Positions 47,051 through 58,121 of a DNA stretch of 64,000 bases are shown here, piece after piece. Made by a program: the position numbers and the translations under genes. This stretch comes from an uncultured Candidatus Saccharibacteria bacterium. GTDB lineage: Bacteria; Patescibacteriota; Minisyncoccia; Phycocordibacterales; UBA918. The DNA is taken from positions 178,964-242,963 of the forward strand of contig CAYOAM010000002.1 of assembly GCA_964402035.1 (NCBI GenBank). The letters are read 5' to 3'. The first letter of the stretch is position 1. Every line of letters starts with the position of its first letter. Below the pieces are notes generated by a model, which did no database searches, was not told where the DNA came from, and was given only the letters and a program-made list of their open reading frames with translations.

Positions 47051-47070
47051 ACAAAAATAAAATCCTGTAA

Positions 47071-47177
47071 TCTGGCGACTACCTACTCTCCCCCTTGCGG
47101 AGTACCATCGGCTCAAGTGGGCTTAACTTCCGTGTTCGGAATGAGAACGGGTGTGACCCCACCGACAAATCACCAGA
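47071..47177 (-). rRNA. rrf: 5S rRNA, intact copy (about 107 nt)
   Basis: TCTGGTGATTTGTCGGTGGGGTCACACCCGTTCTCATTCCGAACACGGAAGTTAAGCCCACTTGAGCCGATGGTACTCCGCAAGGGGGAGAGTAGGTAGTCGCCAGA aligns with bacterial 5S. It is flanked by an 18-bp inverted repeat, ttacaRgattttattttt. Confidence 0.85.
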
Positions 47178-47663
47178 TTACAAGATTTTATTTTTGATGA
47201 TCATCTAATGATCGGCTGAGAACGTGGTACGGTAGCTCCCCGCGCTACCGTACCCCCTCCGACAAATCACCAGATGAGAACATTCAATTTTTGGTACGCT
47301 ACGTGGTTAAAAACCGCTCGCATACAAATTCATATCATATAAGCTTCTACTCCGCAAAACATTTTCAAAAACTAACGCAATGTTCGCATTCCGCGCCACA
47401 TAACAGTCTCTGTTATACAACTCAAAATACTGCGATGTGCAATATTCCTTGCCTTTCAAAGTTTTTCTTTGAAAGCCTTGGCAGTTTAGCATGACACTAA
47501 ACATCACTTATGTAACGCACACAAGCGTACTGCGATGTGCAATATTCCTTACAGGAACACATTCTATTAGTACACCTCGGCTCCACGCATTTCGGCGCTT
47601 CCACCTGGTGCCTATCAACCTGATAATCTCTCAGGGAATTTAATGATTCTTAATCTTAGAGCT

Positions 47664-47696
<33 letters not shown>

Positions 47697-47840
47697 ATTC
47701 CGAACATAGCTACAGGGCGGTGCCGTTGGCACGACAGCCCTCAGACCAGAGGTTCGTTCATTCCGGTCCTCTCGTACTAGGAACAAATCTCCTCAAGAAT
47801 CGACGCCTGCAGTAGATAGGAGACCAACCTGTCTCACGCA

Positions 47841-48105
47841 TCTTGGCTCTCACATTACTGTGAGGATTGGACTATATCTTCTTCCAAACAATTTGGAAGG
47901 TTGACGTTTAGTCTCTACGGGTGCTTATGGGCTTCCCTCGGTATTACCCTTTAACCAAAAAATAAATGGCTAAATTGGGTTCTTCCGATATAGTCAACTT
48001 TACTACAGAACATTGCTGTTCTGTGCCGCCGTACTGATGTCTTTTCGAATATAAGTGGTCACATATATTCTCCCCGGGTTTAGATTGGTTCAGGCAACGA
48101 ATTAC
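47841..48105 (-). mobile_element. 23S intron at the GAACG|GTGAGACAG junction (about 265 bp, no ORF)
   Basis: Exons are colinear with E. coli 23S near 2590-2600. The intron ends in G. Its 3' domain is homologous to the 16S introns. Confidence 0.65.
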
Positions 48106-48779
48106 TTCGCAACCTGAACGGTCTAAACCCAGCTCACGTAACTTTTTAATTGGCGAACAGCCAAACCCTTGGAAGCTGCTCCACCTCCAGGATAAGTTGA
48201 GCCGACATCGAGGTGCCGAACCGTGCCGTCGCTATGGACGCTTGGGCACGACTAGCCTGTTATCCCCAGGGTAACTTTTATCGGGTAATCTCCGGCCGCA
48301 TCTAACGCGTACCATCGGTTCACTATGCTCCGCTTTCGCGTCTGTTCGGCATCCACGCCTCACAGTCAAGCTGGCTTGTGCCATTACACTATCGACACGG
48401 TTTCCATTCGCGTCTAGCCAACCTTGAGACCCCTCCGTTACTTTTTAGGAGGGTAGCGCCCCACTAAAACTGCCTATCACGCACTGTCTCAGTGTAATTT
48501 TTTTACACTGGTTAGAAACTGCCCCAATAAAGAGTGGTATTTCACTGACGAGTCCACATCTCCCAAAAGAAATGCTTCAACCTCTCCCACCTATTCTACG
48601 CATCACAAGAACAGCCTCAATACGAAATTACAGTAAAGCTCCTGGGGTCTTTTCGTCTAACTGCAGGTACCCGGCATCTTCACCGGGATTGTATTTTCAC
48701 CGAGCAAGCCCTTGAGACAGTTCCCCAGTCATTACGCCATTCGTGCACGTCGGAACTTACCCGACAAGGAATTGCGCTC

Positions 48780-49000
48780 TTCTATTCCTCAAGAAGGACT
48801 CTGTCTTCATCTCAGAAACATTCTGAGCGCGTGACATATGGTCTCTTGTTGGTCACGTATTGACTAAGCGTACATTACTGTACGCAAGGTAGCTTTTTGA
48901 ATGGTCACCATGCGTATCTCGCACATGGGACACTGCGTCCATTTACCAATCCATAATCGTTCCAGTCATTTGATGCACTTCATTTCTGAAACGCACCAAA
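48780..49000 (-). mobile_element. 23S insertion/intron at the AGCGCAATTCCTTGTCGGG region (E. coli ~1920-1935), about 220 bp, no ORF
   Basis: The exon sequence caaggaattgcgct is followed by the insertion, then accttagaacgattatagttatcgc. Confidence 0.55.
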
Positions 49001-49751
49001 CCTTAGAACGATTATAGTTATCGCTGACATTGACCGGGGCTTACATAGCCCAGCAATACAGATTGCTCCATATCACCTTCCATGTTTGACCTTCCGGCAT
49101 TGGTCAGGCGTCACCCCCTATACATCCTCTTGCGAGTTCGCAGGGAGCTGTGTTTTTGGTAAACAGTTGCCAGGGAATCTTTCACTGCGGCCTCTCACCT
49201 TGCGGTGAGGAGGCAGGCCTTATCCCGAAGTTACGGCCGCTTTTTTGCCGAGTTCCTTAAGGGCCTCTCACTCGTTCGCCTTGGTCTACTCGACCTGATC
49301 ACCTGTGTCGGTTTGCGGTACGGAACCGTTGTGTATAACGTAGAAGATTTTCTAGGAAGCGCGCTCACTACTTTGACGTACCCGAAAGCACATCTACAGG
49401 CGACGCTCGGATCCGACATTAAAGTCAGAAGTGCGGATTTACCTACACCTCACCCTCACGCTACCAGCGACAATCCAATAAGTCGCAGTAACTACAGCAC
49501 TCCGTCTCTCCATAGAAACACAACCGTGTCATGGAATATTAACCATGTGTCCATCGCCTCCCCCATTCGGGATCGGCTTAGGCCCGACTAACCCTTGGCT
49601 GATCACCATCGCCAAGGAAACCTTGATCTTTCGGCGGGAGGGGCTCTCACCCTCCTTGCGGTTACTTGTGCCGGCATTCTCACTTCTGTACGCTCCACCG
49701 CGGCTCCCGCCTTGGCTTCATCGCAGAACAGAACGCTCTCCTACCACTCGT

Positions 49752-50130
49752 GGACTTCGTTGAAGATCGGATCAATGATCTCTACTGATCCGAAAAAATA
49801 TTTTGTGCTGTACCCCTGACAGGCATCGAACCTGCATCGTGCTTCTTATCTGGGTGTCTAATCCAGATGCACGGTTTTTCAAATTAAACTACAGGGGACT
49901 CACACATTAAAGAACAAGTCGGCGGACGATGTGTCGCGAACCGCTCGGTTGGAAGTTGGATTGCTCCGCAGTCCACCCGAAATGGGACACACCGTCCGCC
50001 AGGAGACGAGAAACGTTATTCAGGGGATTACCGCGGCTGCTGATACCCTGAACGTCTTCTCGCTCCTACAGAGGTTCTTCGCTGGCGTACAGCCAAACTT
50101 TGACGAACCTCTGTTTCAATATTTTTGTAC
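49752..50130 (-). mobile_element. 23S insertion (about 380 bp) replacing the helix-45-equivalent hairpin. It is bounded by a 12-bp inverted repeat, cgaagtccacga/tcgtggacttcg.
   Basis: It contains CAGCAGCCGCGGTAAT (16S 530-loop identity) at 50027-50042. GGATTAGACACCCAGATA (16S 790-loop-like) lies at 49858-49874, next to a tRNA-like T-arm GCAGGTTCGATGCCTGT. Confidence 0.6.
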
Positions 50131-51821
50131 AATCCTCAACGAAGTCCACGAATCCGCAGTTTCGGTACTATGCTTGAGCCCCGATCATCTTCGGCGCAGA
50201 AACTCTCGACGAGTGAGCTGTTACGCTATCTTTAAAGGATGGCTGCTTCTAAGCCAACCTCCTCGCTGTCAATGAATTTCCACTTCCTCAAGACGCACTG
50301 AGCATAGATTTAGGGACCTTAACTGGCGATCTGGGCTGTTCCCCTTTTGACTGATGGAGCTTATCCCCCATAGTCTAACTGCCGCGCTATAACTCTCGGT
50401 ATTCGGAGTTTGATAGGTCCCACGAGATTTCTCCCTGTTGAGACCTTCCAGTGCTCTACCCCCAAGAGGACCACGCGACGCCAACCCAAAAGCTGTTTCG
50501 GAGAGAACCAGCTATTACGGAATTCGATTAGCTTTTCACTCCATACCACAAATCATCCGATGGTTTTGCACGGCCAACCGGTTCGGGCCTCCCCACATCT
50601 TTCGATGTGGTTCACCCTGTTCATGGCAAGCTCATCCCGCTTCGGGTCGTACTCTATCCCTATATTCGCGCTATTCACACTCGCTTTCGCTCTGCCTCCG
50701 GGGGTTCACCCCTTAGACGAAGGAATACAGTACACTCGCCGGCTCATTCTTCAATAGGCACGCGGTCACCAGGCTTGCGCCCAGCTCCCACTCTTTGTAA
50801 GCATACGGTTTCAGATCTATTTCACTGTCCTCACCGGACTGTTTTTCACCTTTCCCTCACGGTACTCGTTCACTATCGGTCTCTTGGAATATTTAGCCTT
50901 AGGAGTTAGTGCTCCCAGATTCATTCGAGCTATTCATGTCTCGAACTACTCAGGAACGGCAACAAGAAAGTGGTAGATAATTTCGCATACGGGACTATTA
51001 CCCACTGGGGTCACTCTTTCCAGAGTGTTCCGCTATCATCACCATTTATTTCTTTCCTCAACTAAATGACGTCGCCGCCCTACAACCCCGACCATGTAAA
51101 CACGATCGGTTTGGGCTTCTCCCGTTTCGCTCGCCGCTACTAAGGGAATTGCAAGTGTCTTCTTCCTGACCATAATGGCGTCGCGGTATTGCTACCGCGA
51201 CATTCGATCAGAAAGAAAACACCCTTTATTGCTTTCTTTTCCTCCGGGTACTGAGATGTTTCACTTCCCCGGGTACGCGACCAACAACAAGTGTTGGACC
51301 TCTATCGTAGATAGAGAGGTTTCCCCATTCGGACATTCTCGGGTCGCAGATTGCTTGGCATCTAACCGAGACTTATCGCAGCCATGCTACGTCCTTCATC
51401 GCTTCACAAGAGCCTAGGCATCCACCGTACGCTCTTCATTCCTGTAAGGAAGACCACACACCGTGTTGCAACATAGAATTTGTGACAATATGAAATTTGT
51501 TTTTCAAAATTTTGTTTCCTCAATGTTCACTCGTTCGGAAAAGAAAATGCAAGCACTTTCTTTTCCTCACTCGCTCCATTGAAAAGGAATACTACACATC
51601 TCCTGTCTTACAGATGGTTTTTCTTCCATTACCTAAATGCTAAACACCGCTGTTTAGTTTTCAATTATGTTGTTTCTCGCATGCAGCACATAGTTTTGGG
51701 AAAAGACCCGCAAAAACAAACATGCATTACATGCGATCCGTATGTGCAACAAACACACATACGATTTGCTCGTATACACCTACATGATATGAAATTGTCA
51801 ACGAACGGGTGTTTCCCTGAG

Positions 51822-57540: not shown

Positions 57541-57882
57541 TTATTCTGCAATCAAAAGACCTGCTTTTTTGAGTGTTTCTAAAACTGTCACGCGATTTGC
57601 TCTTTGTATCAGACGCACATCGCGCACGCTCCAATCAAGAGAACGCAATTGATCCGCCAGTATGGCCCCCTGTATGTTTTTCTCCGCAACAAGCACTTCA
57701 AATGGGTACCCTTTTACTTTTGAAGTAATAGGACACATGAGCGCAAGGTGTGTTTTCTTGTTATACGATTTTGGAGATAGTACAAGCGCCGGACGAGTTT
57801 TTGATTGTTCATGACCACGTGTTGGGTTTAGATCCACCCACACTACATCTCCCCTATCGGGTATATACATTTTTTTTACCAT
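57541..57882 (-). CDS. mazF: Type II toxin, PemK/MazF family endoribonuclease
   Basis: YIPDRGDVVWVDLNPTRGHEQSKTRPALVLSPKSYNKKTHLALMCPITS. Confidence 0.8.
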   Translation of the reverse strand: MVKKMYIPDRGDVVWVDLNPTRGHEQSKTRPALVLSPKSYNKKTHLALMCPITSKVKGYPFEVLVAEKNIQGAILADQLRSLDWSVRDVRLIQRANRVTVLETLKKAGLLIAE

Positions 57883-58121
57883 ACTTCATTTCCTTGTGGA
57901 GAGCCCCACTCAATCTCCGCGTGCAGATTTGAAGGTGAGATGCCCTTTAGAATATCCGCCAGACGAAAAGATCGATCGGGTGAAACAGCTGCAATATGAA
58001 TACCCGTTGCCGACGCGACCACTACGACACGACTCCCCTCCTTCAGGGATTTTTGTTCTACCACACTTTTTGGTAGACGAACCCCGAGGCTATTACCCCA
58101 TTTTTGGATGTTAGTTTCCAT
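57876..58121 (-). CDS. mazE: Antitoxin, MazE/PemI (AbrB/SpoVT fold)
   Basis: METNIQKWGNSLGVRLPKSVVEQ. It overlaps mazF by 7 nt. Confidence 0.75.
   Translation of the reverse strand: METNIQKWGNSLGVRLPKSVVEQKSLKEGSRVVVVASATGIHIAAVSPDRSFRLADILKGISPSNLHAEIEWGSPQGNEVW

What the first reader, a model, noticed from the sequence alone, without database searches (positions are those of the whole stretch)
49752..50130. 23S rRNA insertion carrying 16S-like 530-loop and 790-loop sequences plus a tRNA-like T-arm
The ~380-bp insertion replaces a small 23S hairpin (the segment equivalent to helix 45) and is bracketed by a 12-bp inverted repeat. In rRNA sense it contains CAGCAGCCGCGGTAAT, a 16/16 match to the universal 16S 530 loop. 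About 180 nt later it contains GGATTAGACACCCAGATAAGAAGCACGATG, which matches 16S GGATTAGATACCCTGGTAGTCCACGCCGTAAACGATG. Both are in the same order and orientation as in 16S. The 790-loop-like segment lies inside an 85-nt tRNA-like fold with a GCAGG-TTCGATG-CCTGT T-arm. Two long 16S hallmark matches in the correct order are unlikely by chance. This may be a 16S-derived fragment or a transposed intron relic embedded in 23S. The genuine 16S carries an intron exactly at its 515 site.
Basis: seen in the sequence. Interest (0 to 1): 0.65.

Follow-up and report, generated by a model that had tools for sequence, protein, structure and literature searches.

The report
tRNA-bearing intervening sequence in 23S helix 45
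A candidate-phyla-radiation (Patescibacteria) bacterium has swapped the small helix-45 hairpin of its 23S rRNA gene for a 400-nt folded insert of an already known kind (an intervening sequence), but this one unusually carries a tRNA-shaped module and an exact copy of the universal 16S "530 loop".

Summary
On the minus strand, window 49749-50150 replaces 23S helix 45 (E. coli 1164-1185) with a 402-nt element. It is closed by a 19-bp stem, has no ORF on the rRNA-sense strand and no intron core, and folds very strongly (z = -10.6). All 20 fetched relative loci that reach this site (five different H45 sequences) keep a 22-nt hairpin there. It is therefore a lineage-specific helix-45 intervening sequence (IVS), a class already described in many bacteria and proposed for CPR 23S genes.

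The 16/16 match to the 16S 530 loop is far beyond chance, but SSU models align only 26 nt, the loop plus three closing pairs. The "790-loop" match is 12/13 in a hairpin of the same shape and is not significant alone. The tRNA-like fold is real: Rfam tRNA scores 30.6 bits against a threshold of 29, with a 34-nt anticodon arm.

A near-identical contig from another sample carries a canonical-looking tRNA(GAU) at the same place, with five compensatory stem changes.

"16S-derived fragment" and "intron relic" are not supported. The most likely mechanism, inferred and not shown, is excision from pre-23S by RNase III, possibly helped by RNase P and RNase Z at the tRNA module. This is a new variant of a known kind, of moderate interest.

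The parts
47546..51448 (-). 23S rRNA gene that hosts the element. It also carries an extra hairpin in the helix-9 region, a 221-nt insert at E. coli position 1931 and a group I intron at 2593.
   Evidence: Rfam LSU_rRNA_bacteria, 2294 bits, full length. Insert positions come from a MAFFT alignment to E. coli 23S.
49749..50150 (-). The whole intervening sequence: 402 nt that replace the 22-nt helix-45 hairpin of relatives.
   Evidence: The Rfam alignment shows it as one insert in the helix-45 loop. There are 426 nt between the flanks here against 46 nt in every relative locus that reaches the site. MFE is -182.5 kcal/mol, z = -10.6.
50132..50150 (-). 5' arm of the basal stem (CGUGGACUUCGUUGAGGAU). 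This is the candidate RNase III substrate.
   Evidence: 19 contiguous pairs with 49749-49767 in the MFE and centroid folds.
49749..49767 (-). 3' arm of the basal stem (AUCUUCAACGAAGUCCACG).
50068..50114 (-). Hairpin A. Its 3' strand contains GCGAAGAACCU, an 11-nt exact match to E. coli 16S 971-981.
   Evidence: Fold; k-mer comparison.
50002..50066 (-). Hairpin B, a long irregular hairpin. Read directly from the sequence, its apex is a ~20-nt loop (UAUCAGCAGCCGCGGUAAUC) closed by UUCAGGG/CCCUGAA. The MFE fold adds a few weak pairs inside that loop.
   Evidence: Fold. SSU models align 50023-50048 as the 530 loop plus 3 closing pairs, 13.1 bits, E = 0.03.
50027..50042 (-). 16/16 copy of the universal 16S 530-loop sequence CAGCAGCCGCGGUAAU.
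   Evidence: The same sequence is present in the independent contig L004.
49921..50000 (-). Hairpin C, with a 15-bp base. It is the last segment shared with the L004 allele.
   Evidence: Fold. L004 is identical up to window 49920 and diverges from 49919.
49811..49898 (-). tRNA-like cloverleaf with acceptor, D and T arms. The anticodon arm is lengthened to 34 nt. There is no G18G19 and no encoded CCA.
   Evidence: Rfam tRNA 30.6 bits against a threshold of 29, model positions 1-71. ARAGORN -i at default calls 49810-49898, with 0/500 + 0/500 false calls in controls. The cloverleaf appears on its own in the MFE fold. The only BLAST hits are weak matches of the T arm and acceptor to phage tRNA genes.
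49848..49868 (-). Apical hairpin of the lengthened anticodon arm: AUCUGG-AUUAGACAC-CCAGAU. The loop matches the 16S 790 loop at 8 of 9 positions.
   Evidence: Fold. 12/13 match to the organism's own 16S and an 8-nt exact match to E. coli 16S. Not significant on its own; no SSU hit at E <= 10.
49819..49835 (-). T arm, GCAGG-UUCGAUG-CCUGU.
49768..49792 (-). Hairpin E, 9 bp, next to the basal stem.
33717..33732 (-). The organism's own 16S 530 loop, CAGCAGGAGCGGUAAU. It differs from the universal sequence, and from the IVS copy, at two positions.
   Evidence: The upstream pseudoknot partner reads CUCC instead of CGGC, so both changed pairs are compensated (read, using the established 505-507/524-526 pairing).

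Best explanation
This is a helix-45 intervening sequence (IVS) in the single 23S rRNA gene of a Patescibacteria (CPR, Kaiserbacteria-like) bacterium. It is a horizontally acquired or locally generated, non-coding, non-intron insert that replaced the apical hairpin of helix 45.

Shown:
- its position;
- the 19-bp terminal stem;
- the lack of an ORF on the rRNA-sense strand and of an intron core;
- its absence from every relative examined;
- strong modular folding;
- a genuine tRNA-type cloverleaf inside it;
- a second allele that carries a canonical-looking tRNA at the same place.

Inferred mechanism. The element is transcribed as part of pre-23S rRNA. RNase III cuts the ~20-bp basal stem, so the insert is removed without religation and the 23S rRNA works as two pieces of about 1.3 and 2.2 kb held together in the ribosome. 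The tRNA-shaped module can also be recognised by RNase P at its 5' end and by RNase Z after its discriminator A. The genome's own tRNA-Ile likewise lacks an encoded CCA. The interior would then be processed like a spacer tRNA in an rRNA operon.

The interior looks like a mosaic. A tRNA-derived cassette appears to be exchangeable between near-identical strains. Other hairpins include one whose loop is a perfect copy of the 16S 530 loop. I read that loop, and the weaker 790-like loop, as short captured or convergent rRNA-like motifs with no demonstrated function, not as evidence that a stretch of 16S was inserted.
For: Position and replacement of helix 45.

Terminal 19-bp stem and fold z = -10.6.

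No ORF on the rRNA-sense strand inside the insert.

No group I or II, SSU or other Rfam family over 49600-50300 at E <= 10.

No promoter, and no sense-strand terminator.

Absence in relatives: 20 fetched loci that reach the site, with five different H45 sequences, all have a 22-nt hairpin at the same place despite conserved gene order (212-aa protein, then 23S; the VWA gene follows where the locus reaches it).

Independent assembly of the 5' junction and ~230 nt of the insert: L004, 1 SNP in 4070 nt.

A second contig of >200 kb carries the flanking genes and an ORF inside the 23S.

tRNA module. L004 allele tRNA at 50.7 bits.

Stems: 5 of 13 comparable pairs changed on both sides between the two alleles, and all remain paired.

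Literature: helix 45 is a classical IVS site, where the tetraloop hairpin is replaced by an extended stem-loop with complementary termini that RNase III excises, and the distribution is sporadic (PMC4990558). In CPR 23S genes, short non-intron, ORF-less inserts cluster at the known IVS sites (PMC11270868).
Against: No RNA data were available, so excision is not shown. The element could be retained in mature 23S.

RNase III, RNase P and RNase Z genes were not seen, because only 64 kb of the genome is available.

Classical IVSs do not contain tRNA-like modules or rRNA loop copies, so "ordinary IVS" leaves the perfect 16-nt 530-loop copy unexplained.

No second, diverged homologue of the element was found anywhere, so neither conservation nor covariation could be measured for anything except the tRNA module, and that only with two sequences.

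The L004 allele rests on the last ~89 nt of a 3.3x-coverage contig, and its 3' junction was not seen.
Confidence: 0.6

Rival explanations
1. Retained expansion segment. The 402 nt stay in the mature 23S rRNA as a surface-exposed extension of helix 45, and the tRNA-like and rRNA-loop-like hairpins are displayed on the ribosome. From general knowledge, helix 45 is also where the eukaryotic expansion segment ES15L emerges.
For: The fold is very stable and modular (z = -10.6). The basal helix continues helix 45 without disturbing the conserved flanks. There is no terminator or other disruptive signal on the sense strand.
Against: Experimentally tested bacterial helix-45 inserts with long perfect terminal stems, such as those of Coxiella, Salmonella and Leptospira, were excised by RNase III (PMC4990558). 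CPR rRNA inserts were reported as absent from transcripts (Brown et al. 2015, as cited in PMC9297842). The element is missing from every relative examined, so it is not a lineage-level structural feature.
Confidence: 0.2
2. A functional non-coding RNA or decoy carried inside the IVS. After release from pre-23S, the structured RNA acts in trans. One possibility is that it presents canonical 530-loop and 790-loop hairpins and a tRNA body to factors, toxins or nucleases that target the decoding centre or tRNAs. The cell's own 16S has an altered 530 loop.
For: The 16/16 loop copy sits on a stem while its flanks share nothing with 16S. This is the pattern expected if the loop itself is constrained. 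The organism's own 16S differs from the copy at two compensated positions. The tRNA cloverleaf is maintained by compensatory changes between alleles. The tRNA cassette appears to be swapped between near-identical strains.
Against: There is one lineage only, and no homologue in JGI metagenomes carrying the 20-mer I searched. No conservation data exist. The 790-like match is not significant. No partner for the 530 pseudoknot sits in the equivalent position. No precedent turned up in one full-text search. IVS RNA is rapidly degraded in Coxiella (PMC4990558).
Confidence: 0.1
3. One reading: a fragment of a 16S rRNA gene, or the relic of an intron that moved from the 16S 515/516 site together with flanking exon sequence, now embedded in 23S.
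For: There is an exact 16-nt 530-loop sequence. A 790-like loop follows in the same order and orientation. Exact matches of >= 9 nt to E. coli 16S are somewhat enriched: 5 observed against 1.6 in controls, with 2.7% of controls reaching 5, and only 1-3 for antisense 16S or for 23S. The organism's 16S does carry a group I intron at this site.
Against: SSU models align only 26 nt. There is no SSU hit at E <= 10 over the whole insert and no group I or II hit. The extra short matches are not collinear with 16S; their order is 971, 519, 103, 954, 632, 785, 495, 960, 700. The spacing between the 530-like and 790-like motifs is 178 nt, against 266 nt in E. coli. The 790-like loop sits in the anticodon arm of a tRNA-type fold, not in an SSU context. 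The sequence just upstream of the 16-mer shows no obvious resemblance to the 3' end of the 16S intron.
Confidence: 0.06
4. Assembly chimera. The insert was joined into the 23S gene by the metagenome assembler.
For: The source is a short-read metagenome assembly, and rRNA genes are hard to assemble. The L004 contig changes sequence inside the insert.
Against: The insert replaces one hairpin exactly, and its two ends pair over 19 bp, which a random join would not produce. The 5' junction and 230 nt of the insert are identical in an independent assembly from another sample. The contig has about 20x coverage by its name and is 461.7 kb long. A second contig of >200 kb carries the same flanking genes and a gene inside the 23S.
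Confidence: 0.03

Closest known systems
Helix-45 intervening sequences of bacterial 23S rRNA genes (Coxiella burnetii 428-nt IVS; Salmonella, Leptospira, Yersinia, Campylobacter)
   Same: Same site. The apical hairpin of helix 45 is replaced by an extended stem-loop, and the complementary termini form a long stem (19 bp here, 28 bp in Coxiella). The size is similar (402 nt against 428 nt). The distribution among relatives is sporadic, and there is no intron core (PMC4990558).
   Different: There is no S23p/23S_rRNA_IVP ORF. The interior is a set of five structured modules that include a tRNA-type cloverleaf and an exact 530-loop copy, which was not mentioned in the IVS papers I read. Excision by RNase III is not shown here.
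Non-intron, ORF-less insertion sequences at sites 23IS2/23IS4 of CPR 23S rRNA genes (Tsurumaki et al. 2024, PMC11270868)
   Same: Same phylum-level group and the same kind of site (the known IVS sites). These inserts are not classified as introns and have no ORF, and the authors proposed that RNase III cleaves them.
   Different: The paper describes most ORF-less, non-intron inserts as shorter than 200 bp and does not report tRNA-like or 16S-like content. This one is 402 nt. I could not check whether 23IS4 is exactly helix 45, because the supplementary figures are not held.
Spacer tRNAs of rRNA operons, and tRNA-like processing signals (plant mitochondrial t-elements, PMC1920247; MALAT1 mascRNA)
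   Same: A tRNA or tRNA-shaped fold embedded in a long precursor gives RNase P and RNase Z defined cleavage sites. The L004 allele even reads as tRNA(GAU), the anticodon of the usual 16S-23S spacer tRNA-Ile.
   Different: Here the fold lies inside the 23S gene rather than between genes. Cleavage by RNase P or RNase Z is inferred only.
Genuine 16S rRNA helix 18 (530 loop) and helix 24 (790 loop)
   Same: The loop sequences match: 16/16 for the 530 loop and 8/9 for the 790 loop. Each is presented as the apical loop of a hairpin.
   Different: There is no similarity in the stems or flanks, no pseudoknot partner in the equivalent position, and the context is different (23S insert, tRNA anticodon arm). 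SSU models score 13 bits over 26 nt.

Membership tests
23S rRNA intervening sequence (IVS), helix-45 type | Located at, and replacing, the apical hairpin of helix 45 (E. coli ~1164-1185) | tested here: met
   Rfam alignment. MAFFT alignment to E. coli 23S places the extra sequence at 1163-1185. Relatives have a 22-nt hairpin there.
23S rRNA intervening sequence (IVS), helix-45 type | Complementary termini that form a long double-stranded stem | tested here: met
   19 contiguous pairs, 50150-50132 with 49767-49749.
23S rRNA intervening sequence (IVS), helix-45 type | Not a self-splicing intron (no group I or group II core) | tested here: met
   No intron family at E <= 10 over 49600-50300. The same scan method finds the two real group I introns elsewhere in the window.
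23S rRNA intervening sequence (IVS), helix-45 type | Sporadic distribution: present in some strains or species and absent in close relatives | tested here: met
   Absent from L006/L009-L012, L013, L022, L039-L041 and L047-L055.
23S rRNA intervening sequence (IVS), helix-45 type | Excised from pre-23S by RNase III without religation, giving fragmented 23S rRNA | not testable with these tools
   [quoted passage not shown] No rnc gene could be looked for outside the 64-kb window.
tRNA (Rfam RF00005) | Covariance-model score at or above the gathering threshold over the full model | tested here: met
   30.6 bits against 29, model positions 1-71, at 49811-49898. The whole-window gathering scan did not list it. 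The L004 allele scores 50.7 bits and is cut at its 3' end.
tRNA (Rfam RF00005) | Canonical anticodon arm (5-bp stem with a 7-nt loop) and D-loop G18G19 | tested here: not met
   The window allele has a 34-nt arm with a 9-nt loop where the model has 18 positions, and its D loop AAUUUGAA lacks GG. It is therefore tRNA-like and not a working tRNA. The L004 allele meets both features.
SSU (16S) rRNA fragment | Similarity to SSU models or sequences that extends beyond isolated loop motifs | tested here: not met
   The best SSU hit is 26 nt and 13.1 bits against a threshold of 50. There is none at E <= 10 over the full insert. BLAST against the organism's own 16S finds only cores of <= 13 nt.
Group I intron or intron relic | Recognisable P3-P8 catalytic core, or a homing-endonuclease ORF | tested here: not met
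   No Intron_gpI hit. No ORF of >= 40 aa on the rRNA-sense strand inside the insert.
MITE-like mobile element | Multiple copies in the genome, and target-site duplication | tested here: inconclusive
   No second copy in the 64-kb window or in 350 kb of loci from relatives and unrelated scans. The original hairpin is replaced and there is no duplication. The rest of the genome was not available.

The most novel reading that the evidence does not exclude
The 23S rRNA gene of this lineage is split by an internal spacer that carries an exchangeable tRNA cassette. In one allele the cassette is an apparently intact extra tRNA(GAU). In the other allele the tRNA body has an anticodon loop rebuilt into a 790-loop look-alike. 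Next to the cassette is a hairpin that displays the canonical 530 loop, which the cell's own 16S no longer has. The excised RNA would then be a selected, trans-acting mimic or decoy of decoding-centre elements, or a vehicle for a toxin-resistant tRNA, rather than junk.
Probability: 0.12. Interest if true: 0.75.

Novelty: new variant of a known kind. Interest (0 to 1): 0.42.

Why it matters
If confirmed, this would be, as far as my literature searches show, the first bacterial 23S intervening sequence reported with a tRNA-type module inside it, and in one allele an apparently intact tRNA.

That would extend the "spacer tRNA as processing signal" logic from between rRNA genes to inside one. It would also give a concrete case for how rRNA inserts in CPR bacteria are built from modules and exchanged between near-identical strains.

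The perfect 530-loop copy, next to a host 16S whose own 530 loop has two compensated changes, is an unexplained oddity that is cheap to test with RNA-seq.

If only the ordinary part holds, it is one more helix-45 IVS. It is still a practical warning that universal 16S primer and probe sites (515F region; weakly the 806R region) can occur outside 16S.

Tried and rejected
1. JGI metagenome scan for ATCAGCAGCCGCGGTAATCC. One hit (L005), in a non-rRNA context, so a chance match.

2. Protein-database search with the antisense ORF of the insert as a proxy for homologous inserts. Nothing found.

3. GTDB genome scan with the lineage-specific 5' flank of helix 45. Only two species matched, both with a short hairpin. 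The window's own genome is not among the representatives.

4. IMG/VR scans.
- The 17-mer of the 790-like hairpin gave 13 hits in unrelated, non-tRNA and non-rRNA contexts, roughly what I would expect by chance for a 17-mer in a collection that size.
- The L004 tRNA gave no hit.
- The T-arm plus acceptor 20-mer gave one viral tRNA, L037, which I judged generic tRNA similarity.

5. BLAST of the insert against phage and plasmid collections. Only E = 0.1-0.4 matches of the T arm and acceptor to tRNA genes.

6. Attempts to reach the 3' junction of the L004 allele through exact-protein look-ups (VWA protein, and a 44-aa ORF inside the 23S). Only the same two long contigs, or contigs that stop before the 23S, came back.

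7. Closest relatives P0001-P0003. Their contigs end before helix 45.

8. "Mosaic of universal 16S motifs". Extra exact matches of 9-11 nt to E. coli 16S (971-981, 103-112, 495-503, 700-708) are mildly enriched (p about 0.03). They are not collinear, sit in different structural contexts, and other rRNA inserts of the window reach 0-2.5 per 379 nt. I left this as unexplained and made no claim from it.

9. T-box, Y-RNA, tmRNA, GOLLD and ROOL resemblances were considered. No Rfam family other than LSU and tRNA reaches threshold.

10. ARAGORN at -ps80 was discarded as a test, because it calls "tRNAs" in 63% of shuffles. The default threshold was used instead.
Full report
**Where the finding sits**

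The window is part of a 461.7-kb metagenome contig (ENA ERZ3430527 NODE_4). The organism is a Patescibacteria/CPR bacterium: the neighbouring 212-aa protein has homologues named "Patescibacteria group bacterium" and "Candidatus Kaiserbacteria".

All rRNA genes are on the minus strand and are not linked in one operon:
- 23S at 47546-51448
- 5S at 47070-47177
- 16S at 31846-34526
- tRNA-Ile(GAU) at 29308-29381

**Checking the observation**

The Rfam LSU alignment shows one long insert in the loop of the helix at model positions 1218/1219. A MAFFT alignment to E. coli 23S places the extra sequence at positions 1163-1185, which is helix 45.

The flanks GCGGAUU and AGUGGUAGG are conserved. Between them, relatives have the 22-nt hairpin UGCUCUGUA-UUCG-UACAGAGUA or a covarying equivalent. 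The window has 402 nt instead (49749-50150). The hairpin is therefore replaced, not merely interrupted.

The terminal inverted repeat is 19 contiguous pairs, not 12.

The 16-mer CAGCAGCCGCGGTAAT is present exactly at 50027-50042. Chance does not explain it:
- shuffles of the window give 0.05 matches even with two mismatches allowed;
- the longest exact match between shuffled inserts and E. coli 16S is 13 nt at most, 9.2 on average, against 16 observed.

- only GGAUUAGACACCC matches, at 12/13, with BLAST E = 3 against the organism's own 16S;
- the rest of the proposed alignment needs gaps;
- no SSU model reaches E <= 10 on that stretch, even in a 121-nt search.

What does hold is the shape. CUGG-AUUAGACAC-CCAG is a hairpin with a 9-nt loop, like 16S CAGG-AUUAGAUAC-CCUG. 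By my rough estimate, such a loop match among about 7 hairpins here and about 30 in 16S has a probability near 0.02. That is suggestive and not decisive.

The tRNA-like fold is real:
- it appears unprompted as a cloverleaf in the minimum-free-energy fold;
- Rfam's tRNA model scores 30.6 bits (threshold 29) over its full length at 49811-49898, with 34 nt where the model has an 18-nt anticodon arm;
- ARAGORN in intron mode at its default threshold calls 49810-49898, and makes no call in 500 shuffles or in 500 genomic segments.

The organism's genuine 16S has a group I intron beside its 530 loop. I place it after U516 by reading the sequence.

**Is the insert a real piece of the genome?**

An independent assembly from another sample (L004, ERZ3430525) differs by one SNP in 4,070 nt. 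It contains the 5' junction and the insert up to window 49920.

A second contig of >200 kb in the collection carries the two flanking genes and a small ORF inside the 23S. I could not read its sequence.

The exact replacement of one hairpin by an element whose two ends pair over 19 bp is not what a chimeric join would give.

**Anatomy** (RNA sense runs from high to low coordinates)

- Basal stem: 50150-50132 pairs with 49767-49749.
- A 9-bp A/U extension.
- Hairpin A: 50114-50068.
- Hairpin B: 50066-50002. Read from the sequence, UUCAGGG/CCCUGAA closes a ~20-nt loop, UAUCAGCAGCCGCGGUAAUC.
- Hairpin C: 50000-49921.
- A ~22-nt linker.
- tRNA-like cloverleaf: 49898-49811. Its lengthened anticodon arm ends in the 790-like hairpin at 49868-49848.
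- Hairpin E: 49792-49768.

The fold energy is -182.5 kcal/mol, against -119 +/- 6 for shuffles (z = -10.6).

Other features:
- no ORF of >= 40 aa on the rRNA-sense strand inside the insert;
- no promoter, and no sense-strand terminator;
- no Rfam family other than LSU over 49600-50300 at E <= 10.

**Comparison with relatives**

Gene order is conserved: L10, L7/L12, the 212-aa protein, then 23S, with 5S and the VWA protein following where the locus reaches that far. I used this to fetch 23S genes from relatives whose neighbour protein is 58-79% identical.

All 20 loci that reach helix 45 carry a short hairpin with 46 nt between the flanks, and they show five different H45 sequences. One of them is a GTDB genome found by a DNA pattern.

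The insert is therefore not a conserved expansion of the clade. It is specific to this species or strain.

I found no homologue of it anywhere:
- JGI metagenomes
- the 5.8-billion-protein collection, searched through its antisense ORF
- IMG/VR
- phage and plasmid collections
- 350 kb of fetched loci

**A second allele**

After window 49920, at the end of hairpin C, L004 continues differently.

It has a leader that is clearly related: GTTCTTTGAGGTGTGA, against GTTCTTTAATGTGTGA in the window. This is followed by a sequence that Rfam scores as tRNA at 50.7 bits, cut by the contig end. ARAGORN calls it tRNA-Ile(GAU) once three missing bases are supplied, which is my own completion.

It is not the genome's regular tRNA-Ile.

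Between the two alleles, 5 of the 13 stem pairs that can be compared differ on both sides, and every one of the 13 remains a standard pair. The cloverleaf is therefore maintained, or else the two cassettes derive from two different functional tRNAs.

The flanks are virtually identical, so the tRNA module behaves as an exchangeable cassette. An alternative is that the end of L004 comes from a second locus or a co-occurring relative that shares hairpin C. Either way, the 3' module of the insert is homologous to a real tRNA locus.

This rests on ~89 nt of a low-coverage contig.

**What the 16S-like motifs are**

SSU covariance models align only 26 nt of hairpin B, the loop plus three closing pairs (13.1 bits, E = 0.03 in an 81-nt search).

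The organism's own 16S reads CAGCAGGAGCGGUAAU at this place. The upstream partner of the 530 pseudoknot reads CUCC instead of CGGC. Both changed pairs (505-526 and 506-525 in the established E. coli model) are therefore compensated.

It follows that the copy in the insert is the canonical version and is not a copy of the cell's present 16S.

Besides the 16-mer, the insert shares exact matches of 11, 10, 9 and 9 nt with E. coli 16S, at 971-981, 103-112, 495-503 and 700-708:
- five matches of >= 9 nt in all, against 1.6 in controls;
- 2.7% of controls reach five;
- antisense 16S and 23S give 1-3.

These extra matches are not collinear and lie in different structural contexts. Other rRNA inserts of the window reach up to 2.5 per 379 nt. 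I treat this as borderline and unexplained.

**Interpretation**

Every defining feature of a helix-45 intervening sequence that sequence analysis can test is met: site, replacement of the apical hairpin, long terminal stem, no intron core and sporadic distribution.

The literature describes this class in Coxiella (428 nt, 28-bp stem, RNase III), Salmonella, Leptospira and others (PMC4990558). It proposes the same class for the non-intron, ORF-less inserts at the known IVS sites of CPR 23S genes, 82% of which carry inserts of some kind (PMC11270868; PMC9297842).

The mechanism I commit to is excision of the element from pre-23S by RNase III at the basal stem, which leaves a two-piece 23S rRNA.

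The tRNA-shaped module adds RNase P and RNase Z sites. Like the genome's tRNA-Ile, it lacks an encoded CCA and is followed by A-CA. The interior can therefore be processed like a spacer tRNA.

All of this mechanism is inferred. No RNA data and no RNase genes were available.

Retention as an expansion segment is the main rival, at about 0.2.

**Novelty**

An insert at helix 45 of a CPR 23S gene is ordinary. The following are not described in the papers I could search:
- a tRNA-type module inside it that passes the Rfam threshold;
- an allele with an apparently intact tRNA;
- an exact 530-loop copy displayed on a hairpin, in a cell whose own 530 loop is altered.

I rate it a new variant of a known kind, of moderate interest. 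It carries a small probability, about 0.12, that the interior is a selected trans-acting mimic or tRNA vehicle.

Noticed in passing
window 33717-33732 (-) and about 34076-34083 (-): The organism's own 16S 530 loop is CAGCAGGAGCGGUAAU, with two changes in one of the most conserved sequences known. The pseudoknot partner upstream reads CUCC instead of CGGC. Both changed pairs (505-526 G-C to U-A, 506-525 G-C to C-G) are therefore compensated. Standard 515F/519R primers would mismatch this 16S.
   Followed up: partly
window about 33735-34070 (-): A group I intron (Rfam 79.9 bits) is inserted in the 16S gene after U516, directly 5' of the altered 530 loop. It contains no ORF.
   Followed up: partly
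window 32462-33142 (-), inside a ~900-nt insert near the 3' end of the 16S gene: The ORF is a LAGLIDADG_2 homing endonuclease (Pfam E = 9e-29). Because of its inserts, the 16S scores best with the archaeal SSU model (853 bits).
   Followed up: partly
window 51054-51223, 48779-48999 and 47839-48117 (-): The 23S gene has further inserts. There is a long perfect hairpin in the helix-9 region, another classical IVS site. A 221-nt structured insert lies at E. coli position 1931 and has no Rfam intron call. A group I intron lies at position 2593 (Rfam 63.6 bits).
   Followed up: partly
L004 4071-4159 (corresponds to window 49919 and beyond): In a contig that has 1 SNP in 4,070 nt, the 3' module of the insert is replaced by a different leader and a canonical-looking tRNA(GAU) scoring 50.7 bits in Rfam. 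The contig ends 3-4 nt before the tRNA's 3' end, so the 3' junction is unknown.
   Followed up: partly
window 50068-50078, 49991-50000, 49838-49846, 49776-49784 (-): The insert has extra exact matches of 9-11 nt to universal E. coli 16S motifs: GCGAAGAACCT (971-981), TGGCGGACGG (103-112), AAGAAGCAC (495-503) and GTAGAGATC (700-708). They are mildly enriched (p about 0.03), are not collinear with 16S, and remain unexplained.
   Followed up: partly
window 29308-29381 (-), 31846-34526 (-) and 47546-51448 (-): The rRNA genes are unlinked. The 16S lies 13 kb from the 23S, with protein genes between them. tRNA-Ile(GAU) lies 2.4 kb downstream of the 16S rather than in a 16S-23S spacer, and it has no encoded CCA.
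   Followed up: no
L037 5989-6476 and 8955-9088 (IMGVR_UViG_3300043777_000077): This viral contig has a tRNA array. ARAGORN predicts two of its tRNAs to have 25-nt and 56-nt inserts in the anticodon loop. One shares 24/25 nt (variable region, T arm and 3' acceptor strand) with the tRNA-like module of the insert. This is probably generic tRNA similarity.
   Followed up: partly
window about 57541-58121 (-): A MazE/PemK toxin-antitoxin pair lies upstream of the L10-L7/L12 genes, according to precomputed Pfam hits for L001.
   Followed up: no
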